A stretch of DNA of 64,000 nt, from positions 1,101 through 65,100 of the forward strand of contig JBJHBH010000001.1 of assembly GCA_050485365.1 (NCBI GenBank), read 5' to 3'. Below, piece after piece: positions 27,871-44,359 of this stretch. Each line of letters begins with the position of its first letter. Position 1 is the stretch's first letter. A program made the translations under genes and the position numbers. Below the pieces are notes generated by a model. It had not been told where the DNA came from. It searched no databases and saw only the letters and a list, made by a program, of their open reading frames with translations. Source of the DNA: Desulfuromonadales bacterium (lineage in GTDB: Bacteria; Desulfobacterota; Desulfuromonadia; Desulfuromonadales; JACZKF01).

Positions 27871-28737
27871 ATGGAAGCACCACTCGATACCAGGGACGAC
27901 ATTAAGTGGGCGGCACGCAAGCGCCTTGAACTCATCGAGATGGAACTGTTCTGGTCCGGGCGGGTCAACCGGCAGACCTTGATGGGAAAAACCGGGATAT
28001 CCAAGGCGCAGGCCAGTGCCGACTTGGCCCAATACAAAAAGCTGGCAGACCACAACCTCGCCTACAACCTGACCGAAAAGACCTATCAGGTCACCCCCGT
28101 TTTCTCCCCCCTGTTCATCAACACCTCACCGCAGGTCTTTCTGGCTCAGCTTGCATTCGCCGGTGAGAATGCCGAACAGCTTCAGCTGCCCGCCCGTGAC
28201 ATCCAGCCGGCCCTTTTGCGGATTGTCGCCCAGGCGGTTCAGGCAGCCACCTGCGTGGATATCACCTATCAGTCCATGTCCTCCCCCGAGCCGAAAGCTC
28301 GCCTCATTGCGCCACACACCTTCGTCTCCGATGGCTGGCGCTGGCACGTGCGAGCCTACGATTTTCTGAGCGGCTCCTTTCGGGACTTCCTACTGGCCAG
28401 AGTTCTGCTGGCCGGGGAGTGTGCTGCACCGGGGAGGCCCAGGGAACAGCTCTGGTCGAAGGAGAACGATACCGAGTGGCAGACGAGGGTGCCATTGCGG
28501 ATCGTTCCTCACCCGGGGTTGAGCCCTCAACAGAAGGCGGTGGTGGCGAGCGACTTCGGCATGGTCGATGGCGAGGTGCTGTTTCCGGTCCGCCAGGCGT
28601 GCCTCTTTTACGTTTTGCGACAGCTCAGGCTCCTGGATGAATCGAAGAACCCGGCGGAGCAGCAGATCGTTCTGGCCAACAAGGCGGAAGTGTTGCCTCT
28701 GTTAAACAGGCCACTTCAAGGAGGGGACCTTGAGTGA
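27871..28737 (+). CDS. WYL-domain transcriptional regulator (CapW/BrxR-like; wHTH-WYL-WCX)
   Basis: RLELIEMELFWSGRVNRQTLM..GISKAQASADLAQY wHTH; ITYQSMS..LIAPH..DGWRWHVRAY..FRDFLLARV WYL core. Confidence 0.92.
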   Translation: MEAPLDTRDDIKWAARKRLELIEMELFWSGRVNRQTLMGKTGISKAQASADLAQYKKLADHNLAYNLTEKTYQVTPVFSPLFINTSPQVFLAQLAFAGENAEQLQLPARDIQPALLRIVAQAVQAATCVDITYQSMSSPEPKARLIAPHTFVSDGWRWHVRAYDFLSGSFRDFLLARVLLAGECAAPGRPREQLWSKENDTEWQTRVPLRIVPHPGLSPQQKAVVASDFGMVDGEVLFPVRQACLFYVLRQLRLLDESKNPAEQQIVLANKAEVLPLLNRPLQGGDLE

Positions 28738-30034
28738 TCCGGACCACCTGAGGGAGGAGAGCAGCCAGGAAGAGGTTCTGTCGGGATTCTTCCGTGAGGA
28801 TGTCATTCCGGAAGACCTTCCGATGCTTTTCCCCCTGCTGCAGGCGAAAGCCTCGGTTGAGGCTTTTTCGGCCCTATTCAGCGGGTCGCCCGCCAGTGTA
28901 CTGGTGCGGCTGATGATCCTGCGGGAAATCGGCCGCCGTGGCGACGATCCGCATTGGTCGCCCCGGGACATCGAGTCGATGTTCTCCTATGTGGATGAGA
29001 CGAAGCTCAAGAGTGCGATGCTGAGGCTGCGCAACAGCGGCATCCTGGTCTGGCTCTCGGATATCTCCCGCTACCAGTTGAGCCCCCTGGGGCGCATGGC
29101 GCTGTCCGCGCTGTCGACCATGATGAAGTTCGGTCAGGAAGAGGGGAGCGAGCTTGGCTACATCACTTCCCAGATCGCGGCCAGCCAGGCGATGGGGGAG
29201 GTCAATCCGGAAACGCTGGAACACCTGCTCTCCCGCCTCTCGGAACTCGATGACGAATTCAACCGGGCGATCGTCTCCGGTTCGGAATCCCGGATCAAAG
29301 CCGCCGAAAAGAAGCTCGACTCGGTCTGGAACTGGGTGGAGAAGGGCACCGAGGTCATGAAATTGGTGACCGACAGCCTTGATCTGGACCGGGGCGCCCA
29401 TCGCCTGGCGCAACAGATCGGCCGCCGGCAGAGCAAGCTGCTCAGCATGGCCTCCCGGTTCCAGAGCGAGTTGAACCTCATCGAGAAGAACAAGGTCCAC
29501 ATCGAACGCGGGCTCTCCAGCAGCGACATCCTGCACTGGTTGCAGGGACAGCCGGTGAAGGCGTTGGCTTCGATTCTGGACGGGGCCATGGTCCATACCC
29601 CCTCGCCCGGGTTCGTGCTCAGTGACATCGCCGTGGATATCGCCGAGGACATGCTGATCCACCGCGATGTCTCCGAATTGGACGAATCGATTCCGCCGTT
29701 GCCGGACCAGGAGGACGCCAAGGCGATCGATCTGGAGCCCATCGACTTCCGCGCCCTTGGCTCCCTGCAGTCGGATTTAACGGTCGTGAAGGAATCCACG
29801 CCGCTTCAGGAACTGGTGCCCAAGAAGGATTTTGGAACGACCTCCTACCGGCTCTCCCTGATTGCCCTGATTGGCCGGGCCGGCGATGTGGCCGAGGGCA
29901 ACCCGGTAAAGGGGTTGGTGGATCTGCCGATCGACATGGAAATTGCGGAATCGGGAGAAATCGTCCGGATCGGACGGTGTGGCGTGAAGGAAATGACCGC
30001 AGGGTATTTGCATCGTAAAGGAGAGGGGCAGTGA
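28730..30034 (+). CDS. Kleisin-like subunit of a Wadjet/Mks-type SMC system (JetA/MksF-like)
   Basis: N-terminal wHTH (SAMLRLRNSGIL..YQLSPLGR), helical bundle; first of four genes with KITE-like, SMC and Toprim genes. TTG start with AGGAGG SD. Confidence 0.7.
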   Translation: MSDPDHLREESSQEEVLSGFFREDVIPEDLPMLFPLLQAKASVEAFSALFSGSPASVLVRLMILREIGRRGDDPHWSPRDIESMFSYVDETKLKSAMLRLRNSGILVWLSDISRYQLSPLGRMALSALSTMMKFGQEEGSELGYITSQIAASQAMGEVNPETLEHLLSRLSELDDEFNRAIVSGSESRIKAAEKKLDSVWNWVEKGTEVMKLVTDSLDLDRGAHRLAQQIGRRQSKLLSMASRFQSELNLIEKNKVHIERGLSSSDILHWLQGQPVKALASILDGAMVHTPSPGFVLSDIAVDIAEDMLIHRDVSELDESIPPLPDQEDAKAIDLEPIDFRALGSLQSDLTVVKESTPLQELVPKKDFGTTSYRLSLIALIGRAGDVAEGNPVKGLVDLPIDMEIAESGEIVRIGRCGVKEMTAGYLHRKGEGQ

Positions 30035-30726
30035 TAGAGTCACCGGCGCAAGTGCTGGCCGCACGGCTGATCGCCATGCAGTGGTTGCCGCGCAAGGATG
30101 AGCAGGTTACGCGCCTGATCACCGACGAAATCTTTCGGGAAGATGTTCTGGCGCGTCTTAAGTCATGCGGGTTGTGTCTCCTTGAGAACCCCTTTGCCGA
30201 ACACGTGGCTGTTGGGCTCGACGAATCGTCGACGCAGGCGGTCATGGGGCGGGATACAAGCTACATCTCGAACACCTTTGGCCTGCGGCAGGATGCTATG
30301 GCCCTGCTGGTGATCCTCTGGGCGCTGCTGATCATTCCCAAACGACAAAAGCAACTCGACGCCAGCACCGAGAGTGAAGAGACGGAGCAGATGGAATTTT
30401 TCCCCTCCCCCAGACTGGTTTCCCGGGAAGAATTTGACCGGCCGGCCGTCAAGCTCAGTGCGCTCATCTCCGATTTTGGTGGGAAGCTGGGCAAGAAGCA
30501 GCGCATCAACATCAACCTGGGACAGCTGAAGCGGCTCGGGTTCGTGTCCCAGCACAAGGAGCTGATCACGGAAGGGCCGCTCCTGGATCTGGCCTTCGAC
30601 TACAAACACATGGCCTCCCGGATCATCGAAGGGGCCTTGGGCGATATCCTGAAAGACCCGGACCTCGCGCCCACGGCCGATGAAGATCAGGAGGATTTTG
30701 AAGAAGTGGAGGGGGAGGATGTTTGA
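30031..30726 (+). CDS. KITE-like subunit (JetB/MksE-like)
   Basis: 231 aa, two wHTH-like halves (LGQLKRLGFV..GPLLDLAFDY), position between kleisin-like and SMC genes, GTGA overlap. Confidence 0.68.
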   Translation: MIESPAQVLAARLIAMQWLPRKDEQVTRLITDEIFREDVLARLKSCGLCLLENPFAEHVAVGLDESSTQAVMGRDTSYISNTFGLRQDAMALLVILWALLIIPKRQKQLDASTESEETEQMEFFPSPRLVSREEFDRPAVKLSALISDFGGKLGKKQRININLGQLKRLGFVSQHKELITEGPLLDLAFDYKHMASRIIEGALGDILKDPDLAPTADEDQEDFEEVEGEDV

Positions 30727-33532
30727 GTTCAGATACTTCGAGGCGGTGCATTGGGATTTCTGGGAGCGGATCGCTCTGCCCTTCGATGGCCAGCTGCTGA
30801 CCATCGTCGGACCGAATGGCTCGGGGAAAACTACCCTCCTCGACGGCCTGAGAACCCTGCTCGGAATCGACTGCTCCTCCGAGCGCGATTACCGGCGGTA
30901 CGTGCGCCGCAGCCAGAAGCCGGTCGCCTGGCTACGGGCGGTGGTCAGCAATGCCAAGACGGCCCGGGGCCTTCACTCTTTCCACCCCTGCTACACCCCC
31001 GAGGTGACCCTGGTCTGTCGCGTGAAACGCAAGGGGGGTGATTGGAGCCGTGAGTATGCCGTCTTGCCGGGCAACGTCCCGATCGAGGAGGCCGAGGCCA
31101 AGGCGGGCAAGGACTGGTATGGACAGAAGGACTATCGAAACCTCCTGGAGCGGGCGGGACTGGGTCGGGCGATTCGCAAGGTGCTGACCTTGGAACAGGG
31201 CGCCACGGACAAGCTCTGCACCATGAAGTCGCGGGAACTTCTGACTCTGGTTTTCGAGGCCCACGGGGATCAGGAGATCCTCGACAAATATCAGGAAGCC
31301 AAAAACGAGCAGATGACCATCCAGCAGGAGATCGAGGGTCTGAAGCAGGACCTGACCAAGCTGGAGTTGGATGTCAAACTCAACCAAAACAAGGTTGAGT
31401 CATACAATGAGTGGAAACGGCGCAAAGAGCAGCTAGAACGGCTGGTCCTGGAAGATATTCCCCGGCTGGAACTCTTGGAGCAAACCGAGCAGGCAAGGGC
31501 CGGGAGAAACCAGCTGAAAAGTCATCGCCGTGAGCTGAGAAAACTTCAGCATGATCTGGCAGAAAGACGACTTCATCGGCAAAGTATTAACCGGCAGTTG
31601 CAGGAAGCTACGAACCAATTGAACTTTTGGGATGCCGAAGAAAAGAAAAGGCGGGATGATCGCAATAAGGCATCAAATGCCGTCGACGAGCTGAAAAAAA
31701 TTCTTGTGGAAAAGGCCCGTTTGGAAGCTGTCCAGAAACAACAGGTCGAAGGATTCGATCCCGACAGAGTAACTGCGGACAAGACTCGTTTCGAGCTGGA
31801 ACATGCCGAAACCGTTAATCAAATAAAAAAGCTTGAGAAGGAGCTTAAAGACGCTCGCGCTCGCCAGACCGCCCTCCAGGCCACCCATACCAAAGAACTG
31901 TCGCCGCCGGCGCAACGCATGCGGGAAGCCCTTTCCGCCAAAGACATTCCGCACCTGTTTTTCTCCGAAGTCGTTGAAATTATCCTGCCCGAGTGGCAGC
32001 CCGTCATCGAGGGATTGATCGGCGGCGATGCCAATACGGTTCTTCTCGACCGGTCACAGGATAAGACCACCGCCTTTTCGGTCGGTGAGGAGCAGAGGTA
32101 CCGGGGTTTGGTCACCACGGACCAGATGGAGCGCCCCACCCCGCGGCCAGGCTCTTTGCTGGAAGCGGTGGAGTTCCATGCCCCGGTCCCCTCCTGGATC
32201 ATTTCTCGCCTGGATCAGACCCAGCGGGTCGAAGATGCCCAGGCCGGAGCCGCGCTTCCCGCCGGGCAGAACTGGGCCTCCCGCAAGGGTTACTACAAGG
32301 ACAACCGCGGTGGTCGCTACATCGCGGCCGATGTGAAAAGAGAGTATCAATTTGGCAAGGCCGCCGTCTTGGCCGAAATCGAGGATCTTGAGGAGACCAT
32401 TCAACGAGGCAAGAAGGAAATCATTAGGCTAGAGGATCTCAAGACGGAACTTAACGGGAAGATCGCTGACTGCACCTTGCTGCTGGAGGGCTGGGATGCC
32501 GATGCCAACCTGAAGGCTCGAATGGCCGAGTTTGTTCAAGCCGCCAATGATTTGCCGGGCAAGAAAGCCGCTTTAGAAGAAACTGAGGCGAGATTGCGCG
32601 AAGCAGAAAAGGCAGAGGGCGAAGCAAAAAAATCCTTCGATGCCTTCAATAAGGCATCAGGTCAAGTCGATACCCAAATCAAGGAAAAAGAAAAGCAGGC
32701 CGATGATGCTGAAAAGAAGATAGCGGAGAAGAGAAAAGATGTTAGCGCCTTGATTTTGCTGTGTCGGCAAACACGAAAGAAATTTGCCCCCCATCTGCGT
32801 ACGCCTGAACTCCTTCAATCTATCCTGGCTGAGTATGATTCCCTGGCCAGTGCCAAGGCTGAGAGCAAATCCCTGCAGTCCGACCTTGATAATCGAGAGT
32901 GGGAAAAGGATCCTCAAGTCCTCATCATCGCCCAGAAACTTCAAAAGGATTACGAGGCCAAAAAGACGGTCATCGACCAGCGGCGGGCACACCACGTGCG
33001 GGCACTGACCCTGACGGAACAGGCGCGGGAGCAATACATCAATGTCCTCTACGCGACCCTGCGCAACTACATCCGAAGCATTCGAACCCTGGGGGAGATG
33101 GCCGGAGTCGAAATTCTTGCTACCCTGCCCAAACTGGAGAACGACGACCTGAGCCTGGCGCAGGCAGGGCTGGATGTCGAGTTCCGCTTCGACCAGAAGG
33201 AGACCGACGAAACCTCCGGTGGCCAGAAGGTCATCAAGAGTCTGGTCCTTCTGGTCGGATTGATGATGGACAAGGACGAGCAGTCGGGCGGTTTTGTGTT
33301 CATCGATGAACCGTTCGCCCACCTGGATGTCCTCAACATCAACCTGGTCAGCAATTTCCTGCGGCGCAGCGGAGCGCAGTATGTTCTGACCACCCCCAAT
33401 ACCCACAACATCAACGTCTTCGATGCCTCCGACCTGACCTTTGTGACCCGGAGTTGGAAAGCTCCTGCCAAATGGGCACCGCCGGTGGCTTGGGCGCGCC
33501 GGCAGGAGACCGGCGATGAGGCCGTCGCATGA
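30719..33532 (+). CDS. SMC-family ATPase, 937 aa (JetC/MksB-like)
   Basis: Walker A GPNGSGKT, Q-loop LEQG, long coiled coils around a central hinge, signature TSGGQK, Walker B FVFIDEPFAHLD. Start at MFEFRY. Confidence 0.9.
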   Translation: MFEFRYFEAVHWDFWERIALPFDGQLLTIVGPNGSGKTTLLDGLRTLLGIDCSSERDYRRYVRRSQKPVAWLRAVVSNAKTARGLHSFHPCYTPEVTLVCRVKRKGGDWSREYAVLPGNVPIEEAEAKAGKDWYGQKDYRNLLERAGLGRAIRKVLTLEQGATDKLCTMKSRELLTLVFEAHGDQEILDKYQEAKNEQMTIQQEIEGLKQDLTKLELDVKLNQNKVESYNEWKRRKEQLERLVLEDIPRLELLEQTEQARAGRNQLKSHRRELRKLQHDLAERRLHRQSINRQLQEATNQLNFWDAEEKKRRDDRNKASNAVDELKKILVEKARLEAVQKQQVEGFDPDRVTADKTRFELEHAETVNQIKKLEKELKDARARQTALQATHTKELSPPAQRMREALSAKDIPHLFFSEVVEIILPEWQPVIEGLIGGDANTVLLDRSQDKTTAFSVGEEQRYRGLVTTDQMERPTPRPGSLLEAVEFHAPVPSWIISRLDQTQRVEDAQAGAALPAGQNWASRKGYYKDNRGGRYIAADVKREYQFGKAAVLAEIEDLEETIQRGKKEIIRLEDLKTELNGKIADCTLLLEGWDADANLKARMAEFVQAANDLPGKKAALEETEARLREAEKAEGEAKKSFDAFNKASGQVDTQIKEKEKQADDAEKKIAEKRKDVSALILLCRQTRKKFAPHLRTPELLQSILAEYDSLASAKAESKSLQSDLDNREWEKDPQVLIIAQKLQKDYEAKKTVIDQRRAHHVRALTLTEQAREQYINVLYATLRNYIRSIRTLGEMAGVEILATLPKLENDDLSLAQAGLDVEFRFDQKETDETSGGQKVIKSLVLLVGLMMDKDEQSGGFVFIDEPFAHLDVLNINLVSNFLRRSGAQYVLTTPNTHNINVFDASDLTFVTRSWKAPAKWAPPVAWARRQETGDEAVA

Positions 33533-34743
33533 GCGAGCACTGGTCACCTCCTGATGCGCAGGGGATCATCACCCTGACCCTCGATGTCGGCGCCAAACGA
33601 ACGATGCGCGGGAAACGGCGCCGGCGGTCGGTTCTGGAAAATCCCGCCAGCCTTGCGATGCTTGCTGAGGATCAGAAGGAGCTGATTCGCGGCTGGGTGA
33701 AAGGAGCCTCCTACCGCCGAAAGTGGCAAAACCTGCTTGCCACTGGCGGGTATGCCAATGTTCTGCTGGCAGAAGAGTTGCTCAGGATACTGCTGGAAGC
33801 CGGCTGGGTGGAAATTGAGGAGCATCGGACTCCACGCGGCTGGGAACCGGTATGGATCGAGTTCCGGGGGTATGAGGATCTGCGGGAACACCTGGGGCTG
33901 AGCAATCGCGACAAGGAGAGGGCTCAGGCTGACAGCCTGCCAGGGGACTTCTCAACGGATGCACTACGGATTGCTGCCGCCCAATTGGATACGCTTCCGG
34001 CTGCCACCAAGATCAAACGACACGAACTCCTCTCCGGGCTGGAGAACTGGATGCAGGAAGGCCTGCAGGGGACCCGGCGAGATTTTTCCCTGTTCGTTCG
34101 GGGCCGGACGAAGGATATTACGGCCGCCGAATGGGACTGGCTGGAATCCCAGTTGGACCTTGCGTCCTTCGGCGTTAGCGCGCACACGCCCCTGGTCCGC
34201 ATCAAGATCCCGGGGGCTCTAATCTTCCCGGAGGGGCAGGTGGATTTTCGGATGCTGCCGGGAGCGGTGGCGCTCACTCAAGAGCAGATCACCCGAGCGG
34301 CTGCCTTTGCGGGAGAAATTTCCTGCTGGAAGGTGGTCGAGAACCTGACCAGCTTTGAGCGGGTCGTGGCGTCATCAGGAGAAGCCGAAGGGGTCATCTG
34401 GGTGCCGGGCTTTGCCCCTTCCTGGTGGGTTCAGGCGGTTGCCCATCTGGTTGCAATGACAAAGGCTCCAGGGAGAGTCGCCTGTGATCCCGATCCGGCC
34501 GGCCTGCTGATCGCGTCGCAGGTGGGTGATATCTGGGAACGGCAAAGCGCCGCATGGGAGCCTTGGTTTATGAGTCCGGATGATTTTCAGGATAAAGGAA
34601 TTTCGATGTCGCTTACCGAGCATGACCGGGGTTTGCTCAACACTTTCATGCAAAGGCAGTATAATCACGCCAAACTATTGGAATTAGCATGCTGGATGAT
34701 AGGAAAAGGGAATAAATTAGAACAGGAGTCATTTTTGGTTTAG
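33529..34743 (+). CDS. Toprim (TopoVI-A-like) nuclease, JetD/MksG-like
   Basis: VVENLTSFE (catalytic Glu), VIWVPGF, CDPDPAG (DxD), terminal LEQE; ATGA overlap with the SMC gene. Confidence 0.85.
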   Translation: MSEHWSPPDAQGIITLTLDVGAKRTMRGKRRRRSVLENPASLAMLAEDQKELIRGWVKGASYRRKWQNLLATGGYANVLLAEELLRILLEAGWVEIEEHRTPRGWEPVWIEFRGYEDLREHLGLSNRDKERAQADSLPGDFSTDALRIAAAQLDTLPAATKIKRHELLSGLENWMQEGLQGTRRDFSLFVRGRTKDITAAEWDWLESQLDLASFGVSAHTPLVRIKIPGALIFPEGQVDFRMLPGAVALTQEQITRAAAFAGEISCWKVVENLTSFERVVASSGEAEGVIWVPGFAPSWWVQAVAHLVAMTKAPGRVACDPDPAGLLIASQVGDIWERQSAAWEPWFMSPDDFQDKGISMSLTEHDRGLLNTFMQRQYNHAKLLELACWMIGKGNKLEQESFLV

Positions 34744-34844: not shown

Positions 34845-35660
34845 TTAATCTGCGGTTTGTCCATATGCCTCAGCACGCAGTCTTTTCAAGAACTTCTCCA
34901 GTCCTTGGCGCGGGTCGCTCTCCTCTGACACGATTGGCTCTATTCCTCTTGAACGAAGTATCTCCTCTTGAATGAGGTTAGGTCTAGCTAAAAAGATGTA
35001 AGATCGAGGCCTTACACGTTCAAAGAATGATGTTTGCCATTGCCTATGCAACTTGTATAGCAAGTATCTGATGTTAATGTCGGTTAGGCTGTATCCTATA
35101 AACAAGATGGACTTACCAAGGGCATCTGACCGCAGCTTGATGTCCAGCGGGGATTCGAAACTCAATCGATCGAAATAACTTGATTCTGAGAGTACTATTG
35201 AAGAGTCATCATCGAAGTCCCCATGCAACTTAACTATTTGAGTGTGCTTTTGCTGGGCAAGGGCGATATCGGCGACGTTGGCAATTTTCGTGTACTGAGA
35301 ACCTGCTTTTTCAAATGTCTTTTCAATCAAACGGTCATAGTTAGTCGTGTATATAATCGGAAAATCCAATGCCACTATTGCTTTGTGTACTTCTGATTTC
35401 TCCACATCAACTTGGCTGTCATGCCACTTCCGGTCCATCCAACTCCGGAGAGGACCGAGTGTGCCCTTCTTCAGAATGTAATATTCCGCTAATGAGAGGT
35501 AGTCTCCAGATAATTGAAAAACTTGAGGGTCAAAATCAAGCTCTTCGGCTAGTCTGTCGATAAGTTCGCTAAATGAGGGCAACTGAAGGTTCATGGAAAC
35601 CCCAGCACCAGCGAACAAGATTACTTTTTTATCCCTTATCGCCTGAATTAGATCCTGCAT
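34845..35660 (-). CDS. SIR2-like NADase (KomC-like)
   Basis: LFAGAGVSM..LPSFSEL, IYTTNYD, KLHGD, LFIGYSLTD. Confidence 0.92.
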   Translation of the reverse strand: MQDLIQAIRDKKVILFAGAGVSMNLQLPSFSELIDRLAEELDFDPQVFQLSGDYLSLAEYYILKKGTLGPLRSWMDRKWHDSQVDVEKSEVHKAIVALDFPIIYTTNYDRLIEKTFEKAGSQYTKIANVADIALAQQKHTQIVKLHGDFDDDSSIVLSESSYFDRLSFESPLDIKLRSDALGKSILFIGYSLTDINIRYLLYKLHRQWQTSFFERVRPRSYIFLARPNLIQEEILRSRGIEPIVSEESDPRQGLEKFLKRLRAEAYGQTAD

Positions 35661-35661
35661 T

Positions 35662-36222
35662 TCAAGCCCTCCCGCGCTTTCTCAAGAAACCTGCAAAAGC
35701 ATCTAACGCGCTTCGTCGCATTGAAATTTCATTCTTTTTCTCGCCAAGTTCAGCGAATGTCTGTTCATATCCATGTGGAATAAAAACACAGTCCCATTGA
35801 AAGTCTCTATTCCCTCGAGGTTCCGAGGCGATCGTTCCTGCGATCTCCCCTTCAAAGAGATAGAATTGTTTTCCATCAACGTAGCCGATTATCGTTCTTG
35901 CTACTACACTGTTATCCGGCGCTTTGCCGAACAGTTCAGCGAATCGGTCTGCTTGAAGCGTGTCCCAGAAGATCTGCGTCAGTCCCCCTGGAAGGCCGTT
36001 CATGTAACTGAGATAGAGTCCCGTATGCTCAACAAACAAAGGCCGGCCGATTTGCTGAAATGCCTTCAAAGCCTTATCTTTTACCAGACGTTTTGTGTCT
36101 TCAGTCTGAAGTTCTTCAACCTTGAGACTTACAGGAATAACCATGACTCCTGCGCCCGAAAGGATTTGTTCCGACTCAGCTATTTTAAAGCGATTACTTG
36201 ACAGGAACCGGACTTGCAGCAT
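35662..36222 (-). CDS. HAM1/ITPase-fold protein with degenerate catalytic residues (KomB-like)
   Basis: SSNRFKIAE, KDKALKA, VEHTGL (canonical VEDT/ADDS), NGLPG, DFQWDCVF, EISMR (canonical SHR). Start ATG 36222 with GCGGAG SD. Confidence 0.9.
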   Translation of the reverse strand: MLQVRFLSSNRFKIAESEQILSGAGVMVIPVSLKVEELQTEDTKRLVKDKALKAFQQIGRPLFVEHTGLYLSYMNGLPGGLTQIFWDTLQADRFAELFGKAPDNSVVARTIIGYVDGKQFYLFEGEIAGTIASEPRGNRDFQWDCVFIPHGYEQTFAELGEKKNEISMRRSALDAFAGFLRKRGRA

Positions 36223-36224
36223 GG

Positions 36225-37820
36225 TCAGACTCCGCATAAGCAGAAATTCAAGTCGATGGCCAGGACCTTTGTAATCAAATTACCTAGCTCCATATCGTGC
36301 ATTCCTGGTTTGAACTCCCAAACTCCCGCTCCATACTGATTGATGTACTCCTTCGAGAACCATCCGGCCGTATCCTCCGACCGGGCTGGTGAAAGAAGCA
36401 AGACGGCTTGGCAGGTCCCGCCGAAACTGTCATATCTGAGGGCATCGCGATAGATGTGCACCGAAGAAAAGGAGTCAGCAAGGTTCTGGCGACCAACGCG
36501 GTATTTTGCGTCCAAGCAGAGCCATCTGCCCTCGCCATTCTTTGGCTGATAACTGATAGTGATGTCAGGCCGGCGCTCGCCGGAGATGGACCATCGTTTG
36601 TGGTTGGAGCGGTTAAAGTAGCTGGCGAACGTCGCGTTGAATCTGATCTCAACCGTACCCCCCGATACGTCTTGAGCTCTGAACAATGCACCATCGCCGG
36701 TGGAGCAGGGGTCCAGCAGATTCGAAAGCTTGCAGCCCGCCCATTTCCAATCAGGCAAGGCCGCCCGCATCTGCCGGCAGACCGCCAGAAACGCCCACAG
36801 CTCGTAGACGGAATAGCTAGGCCGCACCGCGGCTTGATATGCGCTCTGCTGGGTTTCGTAGCGGAACAGCGGATTCAGAAAAAGCCGACCAATCTGGTGG
36901 ACCTGCAGGTATGTCGGGTCGTCGAAGACGACCTGCAGCGCAGCCTCGCTCAGGGGCTCACGCTGAATTCGGCTCAGGAAAGACCTTCGCCACAACTGCA
37001 GGAGGCGATCGGCTCCCTTTCGCAGCGCGTTGGCTCTACTCCGGCACCAGAGCTGACTGTCTTCAGAACCCTTTGCTGCCGCCCTATCCAGACCATCTGC
37101 CGCTCTGCAAAGGGTGGATTCGACCTCGTAGACTAGCCAAGAGATGTAGCGGTTTGCGGGATGGTCGATGATCTCGACCGTCAGCCGCTGTGAAATCAGC
37201 GGTGCGGGGCCTGGCAATGCCAGGCTTTTCCAAGGGTCAAGGTGTTCTTGGAGTTGAGGGTGCCGAGTGACCCACCGCAGCGTCTCTCGATCAACTTTCC
37301 TGACCATGCGTAGCGGTATGTCATCCTGGATGGTGATGTCCCGCTGTCTTGGGTTTTCAAGGAGAACCTGGAGGGCGCGTTCGAAAACCGTCAATAAGGG
37401 TGTCAGCGCTTCCGCAATGAAGGGAAGAGGAACTCCCTCTTTGCCTACGTTGCCTGACTTGCCTCCCTCCGTCCCCGCCGAAACCCCTGGTAGCCAGTTC
37501 TCCAGATCGGTCAACATGCCTATCCAGAGTGTATCGGTAAGCTTGGACTGACGCGGCTGCACCCTCACCGGTATGGAGATAACCTGATCTGGCGACGCCT
37601 GTATGCGCAGTTCGGCATCGGCAATCCAATGCCCAGGTCGTATCGTCAAGGTGCCTTGGGGATTTGGCTGAACCTTTATTCCATCGAAAAATAACTCAAA
37701 GGCACCGCTCTCTTCAGATAGGATTTGGTACTCGACCATCTCCTCCAGAAGTAGTTTTGCCCCAGGCTGAACGGGAATGATCTTTCCGTTCGGCCGTCGT
37801 TGTAATGCCAGGCTAATCAT
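36225..37820 (-). CDS. McrC-like nuclease (DUF2357 + PD-(D/E)XK)
   Basis: DHPANRYI, DDPTY..I, YELWAFL, RPDITI..LCLDAKYR..IHIYRDAL. Confidence 0.85.
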   Translation of the reverse strand: MISLALQRRPNGKIIPVQPGAKLLLEEMVEYQILSEESGAFELFFDGIKVQPNPQGTLTIRPGHWIADAELRIQASPDQVISIPVRVQPRQSKLTDTLWIGMLTDLENWLPGVSAGTEGGKSGNVGKEGVPLPFIAEALTPLLTVFERALQVLLENPRQRDITIQDDIPLRMVRKVDRETLRWVTRHPQLQEHLDPWKSLALPGPAPLISQRLTVEIIDHPANRYISWLVYEVESTLCRAADGLDRAAAKGSEDSQLWCRSRANALRKGADRLLQLWRRSFLSRIQREPLSEAALQVVFDDPTYLQVHQIGRLFLNPLFRYETQQSAYQAAVRPSYSVYELWAFLAVCRQMRAALPDWKWAGCKLSNLLDPCSTGDGALFRAQDVSGGTVEIRFNATFASYFNRSNHKRWSISGERRPDITISYQPKNGEGRWLCLDAKYRVGRQNLADSFSSVHIYRDALRYDSFGGTCQAVLLLSPARSEDTAGWFSKEYINQYGAGVWEFKPGMHDMELGNLITKVLAIDLNFCLCGV

Positions 37821-40141
37821 GCCCAGAACCGGGTGATTCCCGTCGTTGAGAGTTGGTCATTCATCCGCTTGATCTTCGCAGTGCATGCCTCCAGGTTGTG
37901 GTCTTCGCAAATTTTTCCGATTTGCAACAGAGTGTCAGTCAAGAGCGCTCCCTCGCCCCGGATTCGCGGCAGGATTTTGGAGAAAAAAGCCTGATCGACG
38001 AGCGACCAATACTTGGACTGAGTTTCATCGAGCGGTCCATCTGCGGTATCCAAAAAGTCGAGGATCTCTCCTGCCGTACGGTATCCAAAGTGACGACGAA
38101 TTCGAAAGAGTAGACTGTTTAGCTGGAGCAGGAGTGTCTCTACTCTTTGTTTCCTCTGATTCCCGTTTTCGGAAGCACGGCGCTCGAAGAACTCTTCCAG
38201 ACGAACATCCCAGAACTCCATCGTAAACGCCCGATCTAAGACCTTGTCACTGAAAGGGTGAGTGGTTTCGTCCATATTGACAGTGCCGCCAATGAACAGG
38301 TTGCTGGGCCAACGGATGCTTGGCGGGACTCCGTTGACCGGATCATCATTGGCATGGAGAACTAAGCGCTCCCCTGTTTCCATGGAAGAAAGAAATGGGG
38401 CGAAATAGCGCTCCACGCGGGCCAAGTTCATTTCGTCTAGGATCAGGAAATACGGAAACTGTGGATTTTTCGCAGTTGAAAGGACTAGGCGCAGCGCCGG
38501 CTCGATCTGGAATGTTGGGTCGGCATGAAGGGCATTGAAGTACCCTAAAATTCCAGAAGGGTCGCGCCAGTCTGGAGAGACAGCGACAACTGCCTGATGC
38601 TGCTGTGGGTCCAACTCAAGAGATTTGCAATAGATTCTGGAATAGTGGCACAGAAGAGCCGTTTTGCCTGTCCCAGACAGTCCGGAGAGGATGGCAAAGC
38701 GTTTGCGGGGATTGCAGTGCCAGGCAAGGTGGAGGGCCTCAACCTGTCTTTCCGTGAAAACGAAACCTTTTAGATCTTGATCCTGGCAGAACTTCTGCCA
38801 GACGGCAGAAGATGTCAGCCCGGAGAACGTTCCCCTTTCGACCTCCTCCTCATCGATCTCAAGTAACGTTTCCTCAAGCAGCCCCTGTTCCTCTGGGGTC
38901 TGTAGTCTCTCCGGGAGCCTTTTGGCCCAGCTTTTCCCATAATCCGAAAGTTTGACTTTGCCATTAGCATCGAAATCTACAATCCCCAGTGATTTCAACC
39001 AGGCAAGGAGAGCATTTGGCATAAAGTTCGATGTCCAACGAGGATACAACTCTCGCAGGTAGCTGAAGAGGTCTTTCTTGGAAACCTCTCCTTCACCCTC
39101 TACTTTTTGAACCAGATGAGCAAACCCGAAGGCTTGGATGAACAGCTTTTCGACCAGGATATTGGCGGGATCATCCTCGACAAGCTCTTCCCCCGCCTCT
39201 GATGGATGCCAGAGGCCGTTTTTGTTTTCGAGAAAACCCAGATTTCGGACCATATTAAAGATTTGCCGGCAAGATGAAGAAGAGTACTTGGCAAATTCAG
39301 GTGTAGCTTTTAGGGTTTCAACCAAATCCTCAGGCGTTGCTCCCCCTCGCGCTACCGTAATCAGCATTCGGAAAGCTTCAAGATAACTGCTGATCGCCGG
39401 GAAACCCCGTCTTTGTTTTGTGATCGACCACAGTTTAAGCTTTTGAGGGGCCTGTTCCTCATCTTCTAGTGTGTCTGGCCTACGTGCCCCCTCCTCTTTG
39501 TCGACCATTACAGGGGGAGTTTGGCCCTGCTGAAGCGATTCGTATTTCGTATGTAACCACCAGCAGAACATTGACCGCCAGATATGCTCATCTTGAGTGT
39601 CTTCCTTTCCAAGGGCCTCTCGGATTCGCGATCTGACCCTAACCCCACCCTCACAGAAAGAAAAGTTTGTGGTTCCGAGGACGAGTTCGTGAAGATGTTT
39701 TCTGGATTGCCATTGATAGCAGGTGTGGAGGTCTTCAGGAAAAAGGGCAGTGAGAAGACGGCTGAGCTTGGCCTGAGGTCTTTGTGTGGCGTGAGTGCCA
39801 TAGATCATGTCCATGATCTGGTCATAGGCATCACTAAACGCTTTGGCTCGCTTTTGTATATCATCAGGCCAAGACTTTTTCCGGATGTCCAGCAACGCCT
39901 GCGCAACCTGTTGATCGGTGTAGGCAGATTTTACATTGACCGCTTCTCCTGCTCCAATCCCACTGACACCCTTTGCCCGCCAAAGTTTCTCTTGATTCCC
40001 AGGCTCTAGAAACTCCTGCTCGGAAAGTGATTTGAAATACTGAACGTCACGCAAGTAATCGTTATGCCATTCTCTCCAAGGAGATTGCTCGCGGAATTTC
40101 TTGTACAGTTCCTGAAGTTTGGTTGCCTCTAGTACAGCCAT
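37817..40141 (-). CDS. McrB-like AAA+ NTPase with ~430-aa N-terminal reader region
   Basis: Walker A GLSGTGKT, VAVSPDWRD, Walker B LILDEMNLARVERYFA, McrB signature GTVNMDE, DKVLDRAF. Confidence 0.9.
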   Translation of the reverse strand: MAVLEATKLQELYKKFREQSPWREWHNDYLRDVQYFKSLSEQEFLEPGNQEKLWRAKGVSGIGAGEAVNVKSAYTDQQVAQALLDIRKKSWPDDIQKRAKAFSDAYDQIMDMIYGTHATQRPQAKLSRLLTALFPEDLHTCYQWQSRKHLHELVLGTTNFSFCEGGVRVRSRIREALGKEDTQDEHIWRSMFCWWLHTKYESLQQGQTPPVMVDKEEGARRPDTLEDEEQAPQKLKLWSITKQRRGFPAISSYLEAFRMLITVARGGATPEDLVETLKATPEFAKYSSSSCRQIFNMVRNLGFLENKNGLWHPSEAGEELVEDDPANILVEKLFIQAFGFAHLVQKVEGEGEVSKKDLFSYLRELYPRWTSNFMPNALLAWLKSLGIVDFDANGKVKLSDYGKSWAKRLPERLQTPEEQGLLEETLLEIDEEEVERGTFSGLTSSAVWQKFCQDQDLKGFVFTERQVEALHLAWHCNPRKRFAILSGLSGTGKTALLCHYSRIYCKSLELDPQQHQAVVAVSPDWRDPSGILGYFNALHADPTFQIEPALRLVLSTAKNPQFPYFLILDEMNLARVERYFAPFLSSMETGERLVLHANDDPVNGVPPSIRWPSNLFIGGTVNMDETTHPFSDKVLDRAFTMEFWDVRLEEFFERRASENGNQRKQRVETLLLQLNSLLFRIRRHFGYRTAGEILDFLDTADGPLDETQSKYWSLVDQAFFSKILPRIRGEGALLTDTLLQIGKICEDHNLEACTAKIKRMNDQLSTTGITRFWA

Positions 40142-40508: not shown

Positions 40509-41459
40509 TTATTGGGAATTATCTACCATCGCAGAATGGCCAGTTGGGGTGGCTGAAAATTTCCTAACAGTCTTAGCAATTTCGCGAAGAACGTCTTCTT
40601 CGCAACTAAACACATCCTTAAAGATGATAGGTCCTTCAGAAAGTGTTGGAGGATCATCCCTAATATCAGAATAATGTTTGGATAAGACATCTTTTCCGCT
40701 CAATGTTGGAACAGATTGTCCATTAATATAGGTTGCGGTTATGGATAATTTTACTACTTTTAAAGAAGATCTCTCAATCATTGAAATCAAGTAATTGACA
40801 GCCGCATTTTCTTCCAGGATATCCTCAGGCATTATTGAAAATAAAAACTTTTCCTGAGGGGATGCCCTGTCGGCCACCAACAAAAGTCTTCTAAGCTTTT
40901 CAACCAAAATTGACCTTTTCTTTCCAGTGTGCTTAACGCTTTGCTTCCATTTGATAGGAGTGCAATGTACTGCAATATCTCCATCAGACCATTTCTTTAA
41001 GCTTTCTCTAGCCCTCGCTTTCACAAAATCATTTCCACGGTATTGTCTTAGACTCAAATCCATCCCGTAAGCGAACAGCCCGTAGATATGGTTTTTGTAA
41101 GTGCTTGTTCTGTCATCTTGCCTAACTCCAAGAGTTAGGCGATCTGGTTTAAACGTCTTAATGTACCGATCCATTGGCCAGCACAAAAGGCGTTCGAACT
41201 CAAGAAATACTCTAAATCTTATGGCTTTATTACGGGCACTTTCAATTCGTTCATTTAGGTATTCGGGTTTTTGTAGCAAATCCCTAATTCTTCTCGCCGA
41301 AATTCCCACTTCTGTGGACAATTTTTCGATTTTTCTTACTCGTATTCCTTTCGAATATGAATTGCTTCGGTCCTCACTTAAAAACTCCCTAATCCTCTCA
41401 AGGTCTTCTAATTTGAGAGCCGCCTTTTGGTTTTGGGGGGTCATCCTCGGTTCCTGCAT
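40509..41459 (-). CDS. AT-rich orphan protein, possible N-terminal HTH
   Basis: Long ORF with very low GC; KLSTEVGISARRIRDLL helix-turn-helix-like. Start uncertain (41459 or 41444). Confidence 0.55.
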   Translation of the reverse strand: MQEPRMTPQNQKAALKLEDLERIREFLSEDRSNSYSKGIRVRKIEKLSTEVGISARRIRDLLQKPEYLNERIESARNKAIRFRVFLEFERLLCWPMDRYIKTFKPDRLTLGVRQDDRTSTYKNHIYGLFAYGMDLSLRQYRGNDFVKARARESLKKWSDGDIAVHCTPIKWKQSVKHTGKKRSILVEKLRRLLLVADRASPQEKFLFSIMPEDILEENAAVNYLISMIERSSLKVVKLSITATYINGQSVPTLSGKDVLSKHYSDIRDDPPTLSEGPIIFKDVFSCEEDVLREIAKTVRKFSATPTGHSAMVDNSQ

Positions 41460-41633
41460 ATAGTGAAGTGATTTTTTTGGAAAATTGTTGCAGAAAATTA
41501 CTTGGGAGACAAGCCGTATTTCGCGTCGCAGCGTTGTAAGTACCCGAAGTGAAAGAAAAAACTCCTTGATATGGAATTCAGCGCACCCTATTCTGAGCTT
41601 CCCAATCAAGGGCAAACACGAAGGAGGAGGTAG

Positions 41634-41900
41634 ATGAATTTAAACGATTTCGACCCGATGGAGGAAATCACACAGGTGATGATCGACAACTATGATGAGG
41701 AGGAATTAGAGCGGCAATTATTGGAGGAAATTGAAGAGCTCGCGTTTCAGCGCCTGAGCGAGGATGACGACGACTCTTTCGGCCCCGGCGGGGGATCTTG
41801 TTGTTGTGGCCTCGATTTTCCTTACTGCCGAGATGAGGCTGTCGAGCGAAATGTGACACGTTTCATGGACGGAAAATCTCCAGATTTTGTTGGGTATTGA
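41634..41900 (+). CDS. Highly acidic 88-aa protein
   Basis: AAGGAGGAGG SD; stop overlaps the primase start. Confidence 0.6.
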   Translation: MNLNDFDPMEEITQVMIDNYDEEELERQLLEEIEELAFQRLSEDDDDSFGPGGGSCCCGLDFPYCRDEAVERNVTRFMDGKSPDFVGY

Positions 41901-44359
41901 TGATGGGGCACGATTTAAAACATGCCATGCGGGCGGCCGGCCTTGAGCCGCCCGCAGACCTCATCGCCGACGGGCAGATCCACCGCTTCCACGTGGAAGG
42001 TGATAAGCAAAGGGCGGAGAACGGGTGGTACGTTCTCTTCCCTGGTGAACCCGCTGCCGGCGCCTTTGGTTGTTGGAAGAGGGGGATCAGCGAAAAATGG
42101 TGTGCTGCTAGCGCACAGACGCTCAGCCCTGAAGAGCAGGCGTCCATCAGGGCAAAGTTCGAGGAGTTGCGTCGTATCCGCGAAATAGAGAATGAAAAGC
42201 GAAACGCCGAAACCAGAGCAAGGGCCACTCTTATCTACAATTCAGCTGAACAGGCAAAAGACGACCACCCATATCTGATCCGGAAGGAAGTTCGGGCTCT
42301 CCATGGTTTGCGGGTCTCGAAGGGTGCTCTCGTAATTCCTGTTCATGATATCCGGGGGCATTTGCTTGGGCTTCAATTCATCGATTCGGAGGGGGAGAAG
42401 CGATTTTTGACCGGCACGGTGAAGCGTGGCAGCTACTTCAGCATCGGACGACCGAAAGGTATCGTATGTGTGGCCGAGGGTTACGCTACGGCAGCCAGTA
42501 TTCATCAGGCAACCGGTTACGCCGTTGCGATCGCCTTCGACGCCGGAAATCTCCAGTCTGTGGCCGTAGCGCTGCGCAATAAATTCCCTAGGGAAACCTT
42601 GGTTATCTGTGCCGATAACGATCCGAGCGGAGTTGGCCAGAACAAAGCCGAGGGCGCCGCTCGCGCAGTCCAGGGAATCGTTGCTGTCCCAAAGTTCAAG
42701 GTTCCGCAGGGGAGCTCGACCGATTTCAATGATCTGCACGTACTGGAGGGATTGGCGGCCGTCGGTGATCAGATATCCTCAGTCATCGCGAAGGTGCCCA
42801 GCAGCCAGGTAAGGGTGTCGATGAATGATGAACGATGGGGTGAGCCTGGGATTATTGAGCCCGAACTGCAGCCCGTGCCAGCGTTTGATCCCGCAGTTCT
42901 GCTCCCCGAGCCCCTGCGAGACTGGATGGTCGATGAGGCCGACCGCATGCCTGTTCCAATCGAATTTGTCGCCGCTACAGGAATAGCCGCACTTGGTTCT
43001 GTGGTCGGAACGCGATGTGCCATACTGCCGAAACGGCGCGATTTATGGACCATCGTCCCAAATACCTGGTGCGCAATCGTCGGGGCACCTTCTGCGAAGA
43101 AGTCCCCAGCAATAGCTGCGGCTGTTAAACCTCTGGATGTCCTCAGTACCCGGGAGTCCAGAAACAATAGCAAGGATCTTCAAAACTATGAAGCCATGCT
43201 GGTTGTACAGCAGGCCCGGGAAGAAGCAATCCAAGCACGTATCCGAGCCGCAGCTAAGGATAGTCAAAAGGGAGATCCTGAAGAGCTTGCCAGGGAACTC
43301 CTCCAATTGAAGCAGACAGGAGTATCCCCACCGGCCAAGAGGCGCTACAAATCTAATGACTGCACCATCGAAAAGCTTGGAGAGATTTTGCAGGACAATC
43401 CCCTGGGCGTTCTGGTTCTGCGTGACGAGTTGACAGGTCTGCTCGCTTCAATGGACAAGGCCGGCCATGAGGGGGATCGTGCTTTTTATCTCGAAGGCTG
43501 GAATGGGACTAGCTCCTACGACACTGACCGTATCGGGCGGGGTTCACAGCACATCGAAAATCTCTGTATTACCATTGTCGGCGGCATTCAGCCGGATAAG
43601 CTGCTTTCCTATCTGGAGCAAGCTTCCCATTCCCTCGGGAACGACGGATTGCTTCAGCGGTTGCAGCTGCTGGTTTATCCCGACCATCGATCTTGGCAAT
43701 GGCAGGACCGCGCTCCCAACCGGGCCGCACAATCCAAAGCTTTTCGAATCTTCGAAACGCTCGACGATTTTGATCCCGTAGCCTGGGGTGCAGTCCCTGC
43801 GGATGAGCGGATCAAGTTTTCCCATTTTTGCTTCGAAGAAGAAGCGCAGGAAGTTTTCAAGGAATGGGCAACCGAATTGCATGCGCAAAAGCTCCCTGGT
43901 GAGTCCCAGCCCATTGTGGCTCAGCACCTCGCCAAATACGACAAGCTCTTTCCTGCCCTAGCCCTCATCTTTCACTTGGTAGACTGCGCGTCCGGCACTC
44001 CAAGGGCACTGGTTTCCGTCGAGAATGCGTTAAGGGCGGCTGCCTGGTGCGAGTTCCTTGAGGCTCATGCACGCCGCTGCTATGGGCTTCTTGTAGATGA
44101 TGGAATGAGAGCAGCCCAGATGCTTGCGATGCACATTCGGAAGGGGAAGCTCAAAGACGGGTTTACGGTCCGCGATGTCCGTCGCAATCAGTGGCGGCAT
44201 CTTACGACGACGGAAGCCATCCAATCTGCACTGGAGTGGCTTGAGGACGAAAACCACGTCCGCCCTGAATCCATAGGGTCCGGTCCGCGGGGTGGGAGGC
44301 CGACGACAGCTTTCCGGATCAACCCGGCACTCCTTGCGGCCGTGAAAAAACCGAAATGA
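41897..44359 (+). CDS. Primase-helicase (Toprim + DUF3987/YfjI)
   Basis: Toprim CVAEGYATA / ICADND / STDFNDL; helicase-like VGAPSAKKS, LRDELTG, GGIQP, DGLLQR. Confidence 0.88.
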   Translation: MMMGHDLKHAMRAAGLEPPADLIADGQIHRFHVEGDKQRAENGWYVLFPGEPAAGAFGCWKRGISEKWCAASAQTLSPEEQASIRAKFEELRRIREIENEKRNAETRARATLIYNSAEQAKDDHPYLIRKEVRALHGLRVSKGALVIPVHDIRGHLLGLQFIDSEGEKRFLTGTVKRGSYFSIGRPKGIVCVAEGYATAASIHQATGYAVAIAFDAGNLQSVAVALRNKFPRETLVICADNDPSGVGQNKAEGAARAVQGIVAVPKFKVPQGSSTDFNDLHVLEGLAAVGDQISSVIAKVPSSQVRVSMNDERWGEPGIIEPELQPVPAFDPAVLLPEPLRDWMVDEADRMPVPIEFVAATGIAALGSVVGTRCAILPKRRDLWTIVPNTWCAIVGAPSAKKSPAIAAAVKPLDVLSTRESRNNSKDLQNYEAMLVVQQAREEAIQARIRAAAKDSQKGDPEELARELLQLKQTGVSPPAKRRYKSNDCTIEKLGEILQDNPLGVLVLRDELTGLLASMDKAGHEGDRAFYLEGWNGTSSYDTDRIGRGSQHIENLCITIVGGIQPDKLLSYLEQASHSLGNDGLLQRLQLLVYPDHRSWQWQDRAPNRAAQSKAFRIFETLDDFDPVAWGAVPADERIKFSHFCFEEEAQEVFKEWATELHAQKLPGESQPIVAQHLAKYDKLFPALALIFHLVDCASGTPRALVSVENALRAAAWCEFLEAHARRCYGLLVDDGMRAAQMLAMHIRKGKLKDGFTVRDVRRNQWRHLTTTEAIQSALEWLEDENHVRPESIGSGPRGGRPTTAFRINPALLAAVKKPK

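What the first reader, a model, noticed from the sequence alone, without database searches (positions are those of the whole stretch)
35662..36222. ITPase with catalytic substitutions: sensor rather than enzyme
Seen: VEHTGL where RdgB/ITPA have the catalytic Asp (ADDSGL / VEDTCL), SMR for the base-recognising SHR, and FQWD for FG(Y/W)D, while the triphosphate-binding N..K..E and K residues are kept. Inference: it binds but does not hydrolyse a purine NTP, and the changed SHR and FGWD positions may shift specificity away from inosine.
Basis: partly seen in the sequence, partly recalled or inferred. Interest (0 to 1): 0.65.

Follow-up and report, generated by a model that had tools for sequence, protein, structure and literature searches.

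The report
KomB dITP sensor of Kongming defence
This gene is a new copy of KomB, the already described "dead" ITPase that senses dITP and switches on its partner NAD-destroying enzyme KomC during phage infection. The only unusual point is that the deaminase that normally makes the signal is missing from this genome.

Summary
The 186-aa ORF at 35662-36222 (-) is a HAM1/ITPase-fold protein. It has VEHTGL in place of the catalytic Asp motif, FQWD for FG(Y/W)D and SMR for SHR, and it keeps N10/K13/E16/K50.

These are not private mutations. They are the invariant hallmarks of KomB, the catalytically dead dITP sensor of the Kongming anti-phage system:
- The best PDB match is KomB 8zsg (E 4.7e-70, 56% identity). 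The AlphaFold model superposes on it at TM 0.94.
- The next gene (34845-35660) is KomC, the SIR2 NADase (E 4.5e-99), with its catalytic and filament residues intact.
- The genome has a separate canonical RdgB next to rph.

"Sensor, not enzyme" is therefore supported, but it is already published. "Specificity shifted away from inosine" is not supported. In solved KomB the same FQW/SMR residues bind hypoxanthine and select the 2'-deoxy form.

What differs from canonical Kongming is that no KomA deaminase exists in the locus or anywhere in the 100%-complete genome. The window's KomB sits in a weakly supported tree group of loci with no adjacent deaminase.

The upstream McrBC-like pair abuts KomB with a 2-nt gap. 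However, it occurs alone elsewhere, it is absent from all 87 other KomB loci examined, and it differs in GC3. It is probably a separate module.

Verdict: new member of a known kind, low interest.

The parts
35662..36222 (-). komB: HAM1/ITPase-fold, catalytically dead dITP-sensing subunit (186 aa)
   Evidence: Pfam PF01725 6.5e-35. PDB KomB 8zsg 4.7e-70. 56% identity to E. coli KomB. AF2 model pLDDT 87.6, TM 0.94 / rmsd 1.3 A to 8zsg_E. Below every NCBIfam RdgB equivalog cut-off.
36016..36033 (-). VEHTGL motif; His66 replaces the catalytic Asp of ITPases
   Evidence: Sequence read directly. Alignment to PH1917 'iEDSGL'. His is invariant in 120/120 homologues.
35791..35802 (-). FQWD motif = KomB F140-Q141-W142-D143, the hypoxanthine/2'-deoxy recognition site
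   Evidence: The role of these residues in solved KomB is described in PMC13454610.
35716..35724 (-). SMR motif = KomB S166-M167-R168
   Evidence: R168 stabilises the base in the active state.
36175..36195 (-). N10..K13..E16 triphosphate-binding residues (= KomB N9, K12, E15)
   Evidence: The N9A-K12A-E15A mutant abolishes Kongming immunity.
34845..35660 (-). komC: SIR2-like NADase effector (271 aa), 1 nt after the komB stop, with its own GGGAGG Shine-Dalgarno
   Evidence: Pfam SIR2_2 8.8e-30. PDB KomC 8zsf 4.5e-99. 59% identity. N107, H146, D194, R72, D76, R77, H80, loop1 DFDDD, E169 and R177 are kept; E56 is Ser. Junction sequence.
36225..40141 (-). Neighbouring, probably independent McrBC-like pair. 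The 774-aa AAA+ McrB-like gene is at 37817-40141 and the 531-aa DUF2357 + PD-(D/E)xK McrC-like gene is at 36225-37820. It ends 2 nt before komB.
   Evidence: Pfam PDDEXK_7 / DUF2357 / AAA_16 and PADLOC PDC-M26A. Weak match to the McrB GTPase 6ut3. Found as a stand-alone pair elsewhere. Absent from the other KomB loci. GC3 0.64 / 0.54 against 0.44 / 0.47 for komBC.

Best explanation
The ORF encodes KomB, the signal-sensing subunit of the KomBC effector of the Kongming anti-phage system. It is an ITPase that has lost its catalytic Asp (His66 here) but keeps a nucleotide pocket tuned to dITP. With the adjacent SIR2 protein KomC it should assemble into a filament. dITP binding to KomB remodels that filament so that KomC hydrolyses NAD+, which kills or arrests the infected cell. 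Shown here: family membership, conservation of every mutation-tested pocket residue except R8, conservation of KomC catalytic and filament residues, and the tight komB-komC gene pair. Inferred from the characterised E. coli homologue: dITP as ligand, lack of hydrolysis, and NAD+ depletion. Not explained: where the dITP comes from. This locus and genome lack the KomA adenosine deaminase, so the pair is a KomA-less 'receiver-effector' cassette of the kind the Kongming authors already noted.
For: PDB phmmer gives KomB 8zsg 238 bits against at most 86 bits for any true ITPase, and KomC 8zsf 334 bits. Foldseek puts the AF2 model on 8zsg_E at TM 0.94, rmsd 1.3 A, ahead of all ITPases. N9, K12, E15, K49, H65, T66, F140, Q141, W142 and R168 of KomB are all present. 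K49, H65, T66, F140, Q141, W142 and R168 were also checked in 58 non-redundant KomB. F140, Q141, W142 and R168 are invariant in every group; the only departures are one Asn at K49 among loci with a co-directional KomA, and Gln at position 65 in 4 and Ser at 66 in 1 of the 12 divergent-deaminase loci. KomC lies directly downstream in 79 of 80 genome loci. The genome has a separate canonical RdgB beside rph. KomB scores below all RdgB equivalog cut-offs. The locus sits in a defence island with Wadjet, a McrBC-like pair and a P4-type primase.
Against: No PF00962 deaminase, KomA-like, divergent-deaminase or RdrB-like gene exists in the locus or in the 100%-complete genome, yet KomA activity was essential in the E. 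coli system. Two dITP-contacting residues differ: KomB R8 is Ser and H11 is Phe, and an R8 mutation abolished defence in E. coli. Both positions vary family-wide, including in KomA-linked loci. KomC E56 (E56K is dead in E. coli) is Ser here. No biochemical data exist for this protein.
Confidence: 0.82

Rival explanations
1. The four co-directional genes (McrB-like, McrC-like, KomB, KomC) form one integrated system. In this reading the McrBC-like nuclease replaces KomA as the sensor or signal generator for KomBC.
For: There is a 4-nt overlap, then a 2-nt gap (TGA CC ATG), then a 1-nt gap between the four genes. No convincing promoter or terminator lies at the McrC-like/komB junction. No deaminase is available.
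Against: The McrBC-like pair occurs as a stand-alone two-gene module in its nearest relatives (75%, 57% and 53% identity), followed by unrelated genes. None of the 87 other KomB loci carries a homologue of either gene. There is a GC3 step at the junction, 0.64 to 0.44. A restriction nuclease has no evident way of making dITP.
Confidence: 0.08
2. KomB in this KomA-less lineage senses a nucleotide other than dITP, for example one made by phage enzymes. The ligand would have changed along with the loss of KomA.
For: KomA is absent. R8 is Ser and H11 is Phe at two dITP-contacting positions. [quoted passage not shown]
Against: Base- and sugar-reading residues F140, Q141, W142 and R168, and phosphate-binding K49, are the same in KomA-linked and KomA-less KomB apart from one Asn at K49 in a KomA-linked locus. 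Positions 8 and 11 vary equally in both groups, and no pocket column separates the groups.
Confidence: 0.07
3. The pair is a decaying remnant of a three-gene Kongming operon that lost KomA and is no longer functional.
For: KomA is essential in the E. coli system and missing here.
Against: Both ORFs are intact with all key residues. KomA-less pairs make up about half of the non-redundant loci (30 of 58) across several phyla. The window's KomB lies in a 15-row tree group, of modest support (81/83), in which no locus has an adjacent deaminase, although several of these loci sit on contigs with under 1 kb upstream of komB. Motifs are invariant throughout, which implies purifying selection.
Confidence: 0.06
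4. It is an active housekeeping ITPase paralogue.
For: Pfam Ham1p_like match. Public annotations call its homologues 'non-canonical purine NTP pyrophosphatase'.
Against: The catalytic Asp is His. It scores below all RdgB equivalog cut-offs. The genome already has a canonical rph-rdgB. The homologue KomB does not cleave dITP. It is absent from all 5 other genomes of the same family.
Confidence: 0.01

Closest known systems
KomB of the Kongming system (E. coli NCTC13216; PDB 8zsg/8zsh/8zsi/9xvc; Zeng et al. bioRxiv 10.1101/2024.12.20.629578; Li et al. Nat Commun 2026, PMC13454610)
   Same: Full-length homologue, 56% identical, same fold (TM 0.94). It has the same Asp-to-His substitution, the same N/K/E, K49, T66, F-Q-W and S-M-R residues, and the same immediately downstream KomC partner.
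   Different: There is no KomA deaminase upstream or elsewhere in the genome. R8 is Ser and H11 is Phe. The gene is placed 2 nt behind an unrelated McrBC-like pair.
KomC SIR2 NADase (PDB 8zsf)
   Same: 59% identical over 260 aa. N107, H146, D194, the filament residues R72/D76/R77/H80, loop1 DFDDD and the E169-R177 pair are kept.
   Different: E56 is Ser and K67 is Thr at KomC-KomC contacts. There is an 11-residue longer C-terminus.
Housekeeping ITPases (RdgB, human ITPA, P. horikoshii PH1917, M. jannaschii Mj0226)
   Same: Same HAM1 fold (TM 0.8-0.88) and the same triphosphate-binding Asn/Lys/Glu/Lys.
   Different: Only 21-31% identity. The catalytic Asp is replaced by His, SHR by SMR and FG(Y/W)D by FQWD. 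It is not next to rph. It is an accessory island gene.
Second solved KomBC complex (PDB 9v0g series)
   Same: The same HAM1 + SIR2 helical complex.
   Different: More distant: 86 bits and about 30% identity over the Foldseek alignment. It has VEHGAL and FHWD in place of VEHTGL and FQWD.

Membership tests
KomB (defensive HAM1 clade) | HAM1/ITPase fold (PF01725) | tested here: met
   Pfam 6.5e-35. AF2 model with Foldseek TM 0.94 to 8zsg_E.
KomB (defensive HAM1 clade) | Catalytic Asp replaced by His | tested here: met
   His66 in VEHTGL aligns with the Asp of PH1917 and with H65 of KomB. Invariant in 120 homologues.
KomB (defensive HAM1 clade) | Retained nucleotide-binding residues N9, K12, E15, K49, T66, F140, Q141, W142, R168 | tested here: met
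   All are present. R8 and H11 are not kept (Ser, Phe), but these positions vary across the family, including KomA-linked members.
KomB (defensive HAM1 clade) | Closer to KomB than to any housekeeping HAM1 | tested here: met
   238 bits to KomB against at most 86 bits to ITPases. It is placed among KomB sequences in the tree. It is below the RdgB NCBIfam cut-offs.
KomB (defensive HAM1 clade) | Adjacent co-directional KomC (SIR2_2) with catalytic His | tested here: met
   1-nt gap. KomC 4.5e-99 to 8zsf. N107/H146/D194 present.
KomB (defensive HAM1 clade) | Binds dITP, does not hydrolyse it, and activates the KomC NADase | not testable with these tools
   Inferred from the E. coli homologue only.
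Canonical three-gene Kongming (KomABC) | KomA adenosine deaminase (PF00962) in the operon | tested here: not met
   No KomA-like match in the window. No PF00962, divergent-deaminase or RdrB-like match in the 100%-complete genome.
Housekeeping RdgB/ITPA pyrophosphatase | Catalytic Asp in the (D/E)D(S/T)G motif and score above the equivalog cut-off | tested here: not met
   His at that position. 127.8 bits against a cut-off of 203, and 95.5 against 145.

The most novel reading that the evidence does not exclude
KomA-less KomBC cassettes such as this one are activated by a route that needs no host-encoded adenosine deaminase. This genome has no PF00962 enzyme at all. The dITP, or a close analogue that fits the same pocket, would then be made entirely by phage enzymes or by a still unrecognised host enzyme. 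A sub-variant is that co-transcription with the McrBC-like nuclease couples restriction of modified phage DNA to this abortive-infection back-up.
Probability: 0.3. Interest if true: 0.5.

Novelty: new member of a known kind. Interest (0 to 1): 0.2.

Why it matters
The central idea, an ITPase converted into a nucleotide sensor, was published with the Kongming system and has since been solved structurally. This locus adds only another member. Its modest value is as a clean natural example of a KomBC effector pair in a complete genome that has no adenosine-deaminase-family gene at all. That sharpens an open question already raised by the Kongming authors: how deaminase-less KomBC modules obtain their activating nucleotide. 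It also shows that public annotation still labels these sensors as 'non-canonical purine NTP pyrophosphatase'.

Tried and rejected
(1) PADLOC 2.0.0 has no model for KomB, and KomC hits only generic SIR2/ThsA models. That library predates Kongming.

(2) I looked for a conserved alternative partner of KomA-less KomBC by clustering all ORFs within 5 kb in 88 loci. Nothing is shared beyond Pantoea chromosomal synteny, and nothing is shared with the window.

(3) I looked for columns that separate KomA-linked from KomA-less KomB. Only surface and variable positions differ, none in the pocket.

(4) I searched the own genome for KomA by the Pfam HMM, by a divergent alphaproteobacterial deaminase and by an RdrB-like protein. 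All were negative.

(5) The simple promoter/terminator scan gave counts no higher than in shuffled sequence, so it is uninformative on operon structure.

(6) A literature search by PDB codes found nothing.

(8) A first attempt to translate the own RdgB used wrong coordinates. It was read from the ORF listing instead.

Full report
**1. The observation**

The ORF on the minus strand at 35662-36222 encodes 186 aa. A 191-aa reading from 36237 is possible, but more than 100 homologues begin at the Met corresponding to 36222.

It is a Ham1p_like protein (Pfam 6.5e-35).
- VEHTGL at 36016-36033
- FQWD at 35791-35802
- SMR at 35716-35724

N10, K13, E16 and K50 are also present.

In the HMMER alignment to the P. 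horikoshii NTPase PH1917, the His lies under the Asp of iEDSGL, Gln under the Gly of FGYD, and Met under the His of SHRG.

The same genome carries a second HAM1 gene on another contig, directly after an RNase PH-like gene. It has the canonical LADDSGL, FGYD and ISHRG motifs and a much higher Pfam score (226.7 against 120.8 bits).

**2. What it is**

Against the PDB sequences, the best match by a wide margin is KomB, the HAM-like subunit of the KomBC complex of the Kongming defence system (8zsg: E 4.7e-70, 238 bits, full length). Genuine ITPases score at most 86 bits.

Identity to E. coli KomB is 56% over 182 residues. An AlphaFold2 model built on 31 homologues (pLDDT 87.6, pTM 0.83) superposes on 8zsg_E with TM 0.94 and rmsd 1.3 A, ahead of every ITPase.

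The protein scores below the curated cut-offs of all RdgB/XTP-dITP diphosphatase NCBIfam equivalogs (127.8 against 203; 95.5 against 145).

The next gene, one nucleotide downstream and with its own GGGAGG Shine-Dalgarno, is a SIR2_2 protein. It matches KomC at E 4.5e-99 with 59% identity.

**3. Residue-level check against the characterised system**

Zeng et al. showed three things for KomB:
- It has His in place of the catalytic Asp.
- N9/K12/E15 are required for immunity.
- KomBC is activated most strongly by dITP and does not cleave it.

Li et al. solved the filament and identified K49, R8, T66, F140, Q141 and W142 as functionally essential dITP contacts. Q141 is unique to KomB; it reads O6 of hypoxanthine and, with W142, crowds the 2' position. 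R168 stabilises the base.

The window protein has N, K, E, K, H, T, F, Q, W and R at all of these positions. Only R8 (Ser) and H11 (Phe) differ.

In 120 close homologues, H65, T66, F140, W142 and R168 are invariant. Q141 and the Ser-Met of SMR are each present in 119 of 120. Position 8 is mostly G/S/Q and position 11 mostly F. The E. coli residues at those two sites are therefore the minority state.

In KomC, the following are conserved:
- the catalytic N107, H146 and the NADase-specific D194
- the filament contacts R72, D76, R77, H80 and loop1 DFDDD
- the active-state pair E169-R177

E56 is Ser.

**4.

"Sensor rather than enzyme" is right, but it is the published function of this family.

"Specificity shifted away from inosine" is contradicted by the structures. 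The very residues that replace SHR and FG(Y/W)D are the ones that bind hypoxanthine and select the deoxy form.

**5. Surroundings, and what is different**

Canonical Kongming is komA-komB-komC. Here there is no KomA:
- tblastn with four KomA proteins finds nothing in the window.
- The PF00962 HMM finds nothing in the whole genome, which is 100% complete in 167 contigs.
- A divergent alphaproteobacterial deaminase and an RdrB-like protein also find nothing.

I collected 80 KomB loci from species-representative genomes and 8 from metagenome assemblies. KomC is directly downstream in 79 of the 80 genome loci. For the 88 sequences in the tree, which include the window and the solved E. coli KomB:
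- 21 have a deaminase upstream and co-directional.
- 12 have a deaminase on the opposite strand next to the pair; 11 are upstream and divergent, about 25% identical to KomA, and mostly alphaproteobacterial.
- 55 have no detected deaminase. Some of these sit on short contigs where upstream sequence is lacking.

On a KomB tree the deaminase label needs at least 7 changes. The window's KomB falls in a 15-row group, spanning several phyla, in which no locus has a deaminase. Support for that group is modest (81/83).

Of five such KomA-less genomes, two have no PF00962 gene either. Their completeness is not reported, so absence there is not shown.

The pocket residues are the same in KomA-linked and KomA-less KomB. 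The exceptions are one Asn at K49 in a KomA-linked locus and, in the divergent-deaminase group, Gln at position 65 in 4 of 12 and Ser at 66 in 1 of 12. No pocket column separates the groups.

The Kongming authors already reported that the KomA association is "less conserved" and that KomBC spreads horizontally as a module.

**6. The upstream pair**

Upstream of komB lie two genes:
- a 774-aa AAA+ protein (PADLOC PDC-M26A; weak match to the McrB GTPase)
- a 531-aa DUF2357 + PD-(D/E)xK protein

They overlap each other by 4 nt and end 2 nt before komB (TGA CC ATG), so co-transcription is plausible.

Three results argue that this is a separate module:
- Its closest relatives (75%, 57% and 53% identity) are stand-alone pairs followed by unrelated genes.
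- None of the 87 other KomB loci has a homologue of either gene.
- GC3 drops from 0.64 / 0.54 to 0.44 / 0.47 exactly at the junction.

Neither komB nor the McrC-like gene is present in the five other genomes of the same taxonomic family. The region also holds a WYL-headed Wadjet-like operon and a Toprim + DUF3987 primase. This is a mosaic defence island.

**7. Mechanism proposed**

KomB and KomC form a filamentous complex. dITP binds the dead ITPase pocket of KomB. Remodelling of the filament activates the KomC NADase, and NAD+ depletion aborts infection.
- Shown here: membership and residue conservation.
- Inferred: ligand, lack of hydrolysis and outcome.
- Unknown: the source of dITP in a genome without any adenosine-deaminase-family enzyme.

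**8. Verdict**

This is a correct observation of a real, non-random feature, and a new member of a known, structurally solved family. The only open element is the KomA-less context, which the literature already flags. Interest is low.

Noticed in passing
window 36225-40141 (-): A McrBC-like pair: a 774-aa AAA+ protein (PADLOC candidate PDC-M26A) and a 531-aa DUF2357 + PD-(D/E)xK protein. It recurs as a stand-alone two-gene module in metagenomes and genomes. No curated NCBIfam model matches either gene.
   Followed up: partly
window 27871-34743 (+): A WYL-domain regulator is followed by a four-gene SMC/Toprim (DUF2399) operon that resembles a divergent Wadjet (JetABCD). It is convergent with komC.
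   Followed up: no
window 41897-44359 (+): An 820-aa Toprim + DUF3987 (P4-type primase/helicase-like) protein. It suggests the defence genes ride on an integrative mobile island. No tRNA was found in the window by ARAGORN.
   Followed up: no
window 40509-41615 (-): A 368-aa ORF with low GC (0.40) lies upstream of the McrB-like gene. It has no match in Pfam, PADLOC or NCBIfam.
   Followed up: no
L023, L035, L038, L039, L042, L046, L051, L053, L076, L077, L081 (about 1 kb upstream of komB, opposite strand): A mostly alphaproteobacterial KomBC subtype has a divergently transcribed adenosine-deaminase-like gene only about 25% identical to KomA. In 4 of 12 of these KomB the catalytic position is Gln and not His.
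   Followed up: partly
L011 1165-1824 (+); L013, L017, L027 just downstream of komC (-): A deoxynucleoside-kinase-family gene (PF01712, 2.5e-27) sits next to KomA-less KomBC in Acidobacteriota and Gemmatimonadota loci. This is notable because phage deoxynucleotide kinases are the trigger of canonical Kongming.
   Followed up: partly
L050 2986-5751 (+), Rahnella inusitata: A 921-aa protein with a weak C-terminal A_deaminase match (E 5.9e-4) lies directly upstream of komBC. It is possibly the RdrB-like/RADAR association mentioned by Zeng et al.
   Followed up: no
L083/L084 1-9960: The closest KomBC relatives (75% identity) sit behind an SNF2 helicase + DUF1156 + DUF499 cluster and before an HU-like gene and a RES-domain gene. 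This is another defence-island context without KomA.
   Followed up: no
PMC13454610, section 9: The text says a conserved 'glutamate' is replaced by H65 in KomB. The alignment here and Zeng et al. show that the replaced residue is the catalytic aspartate.
   Followed up: yes
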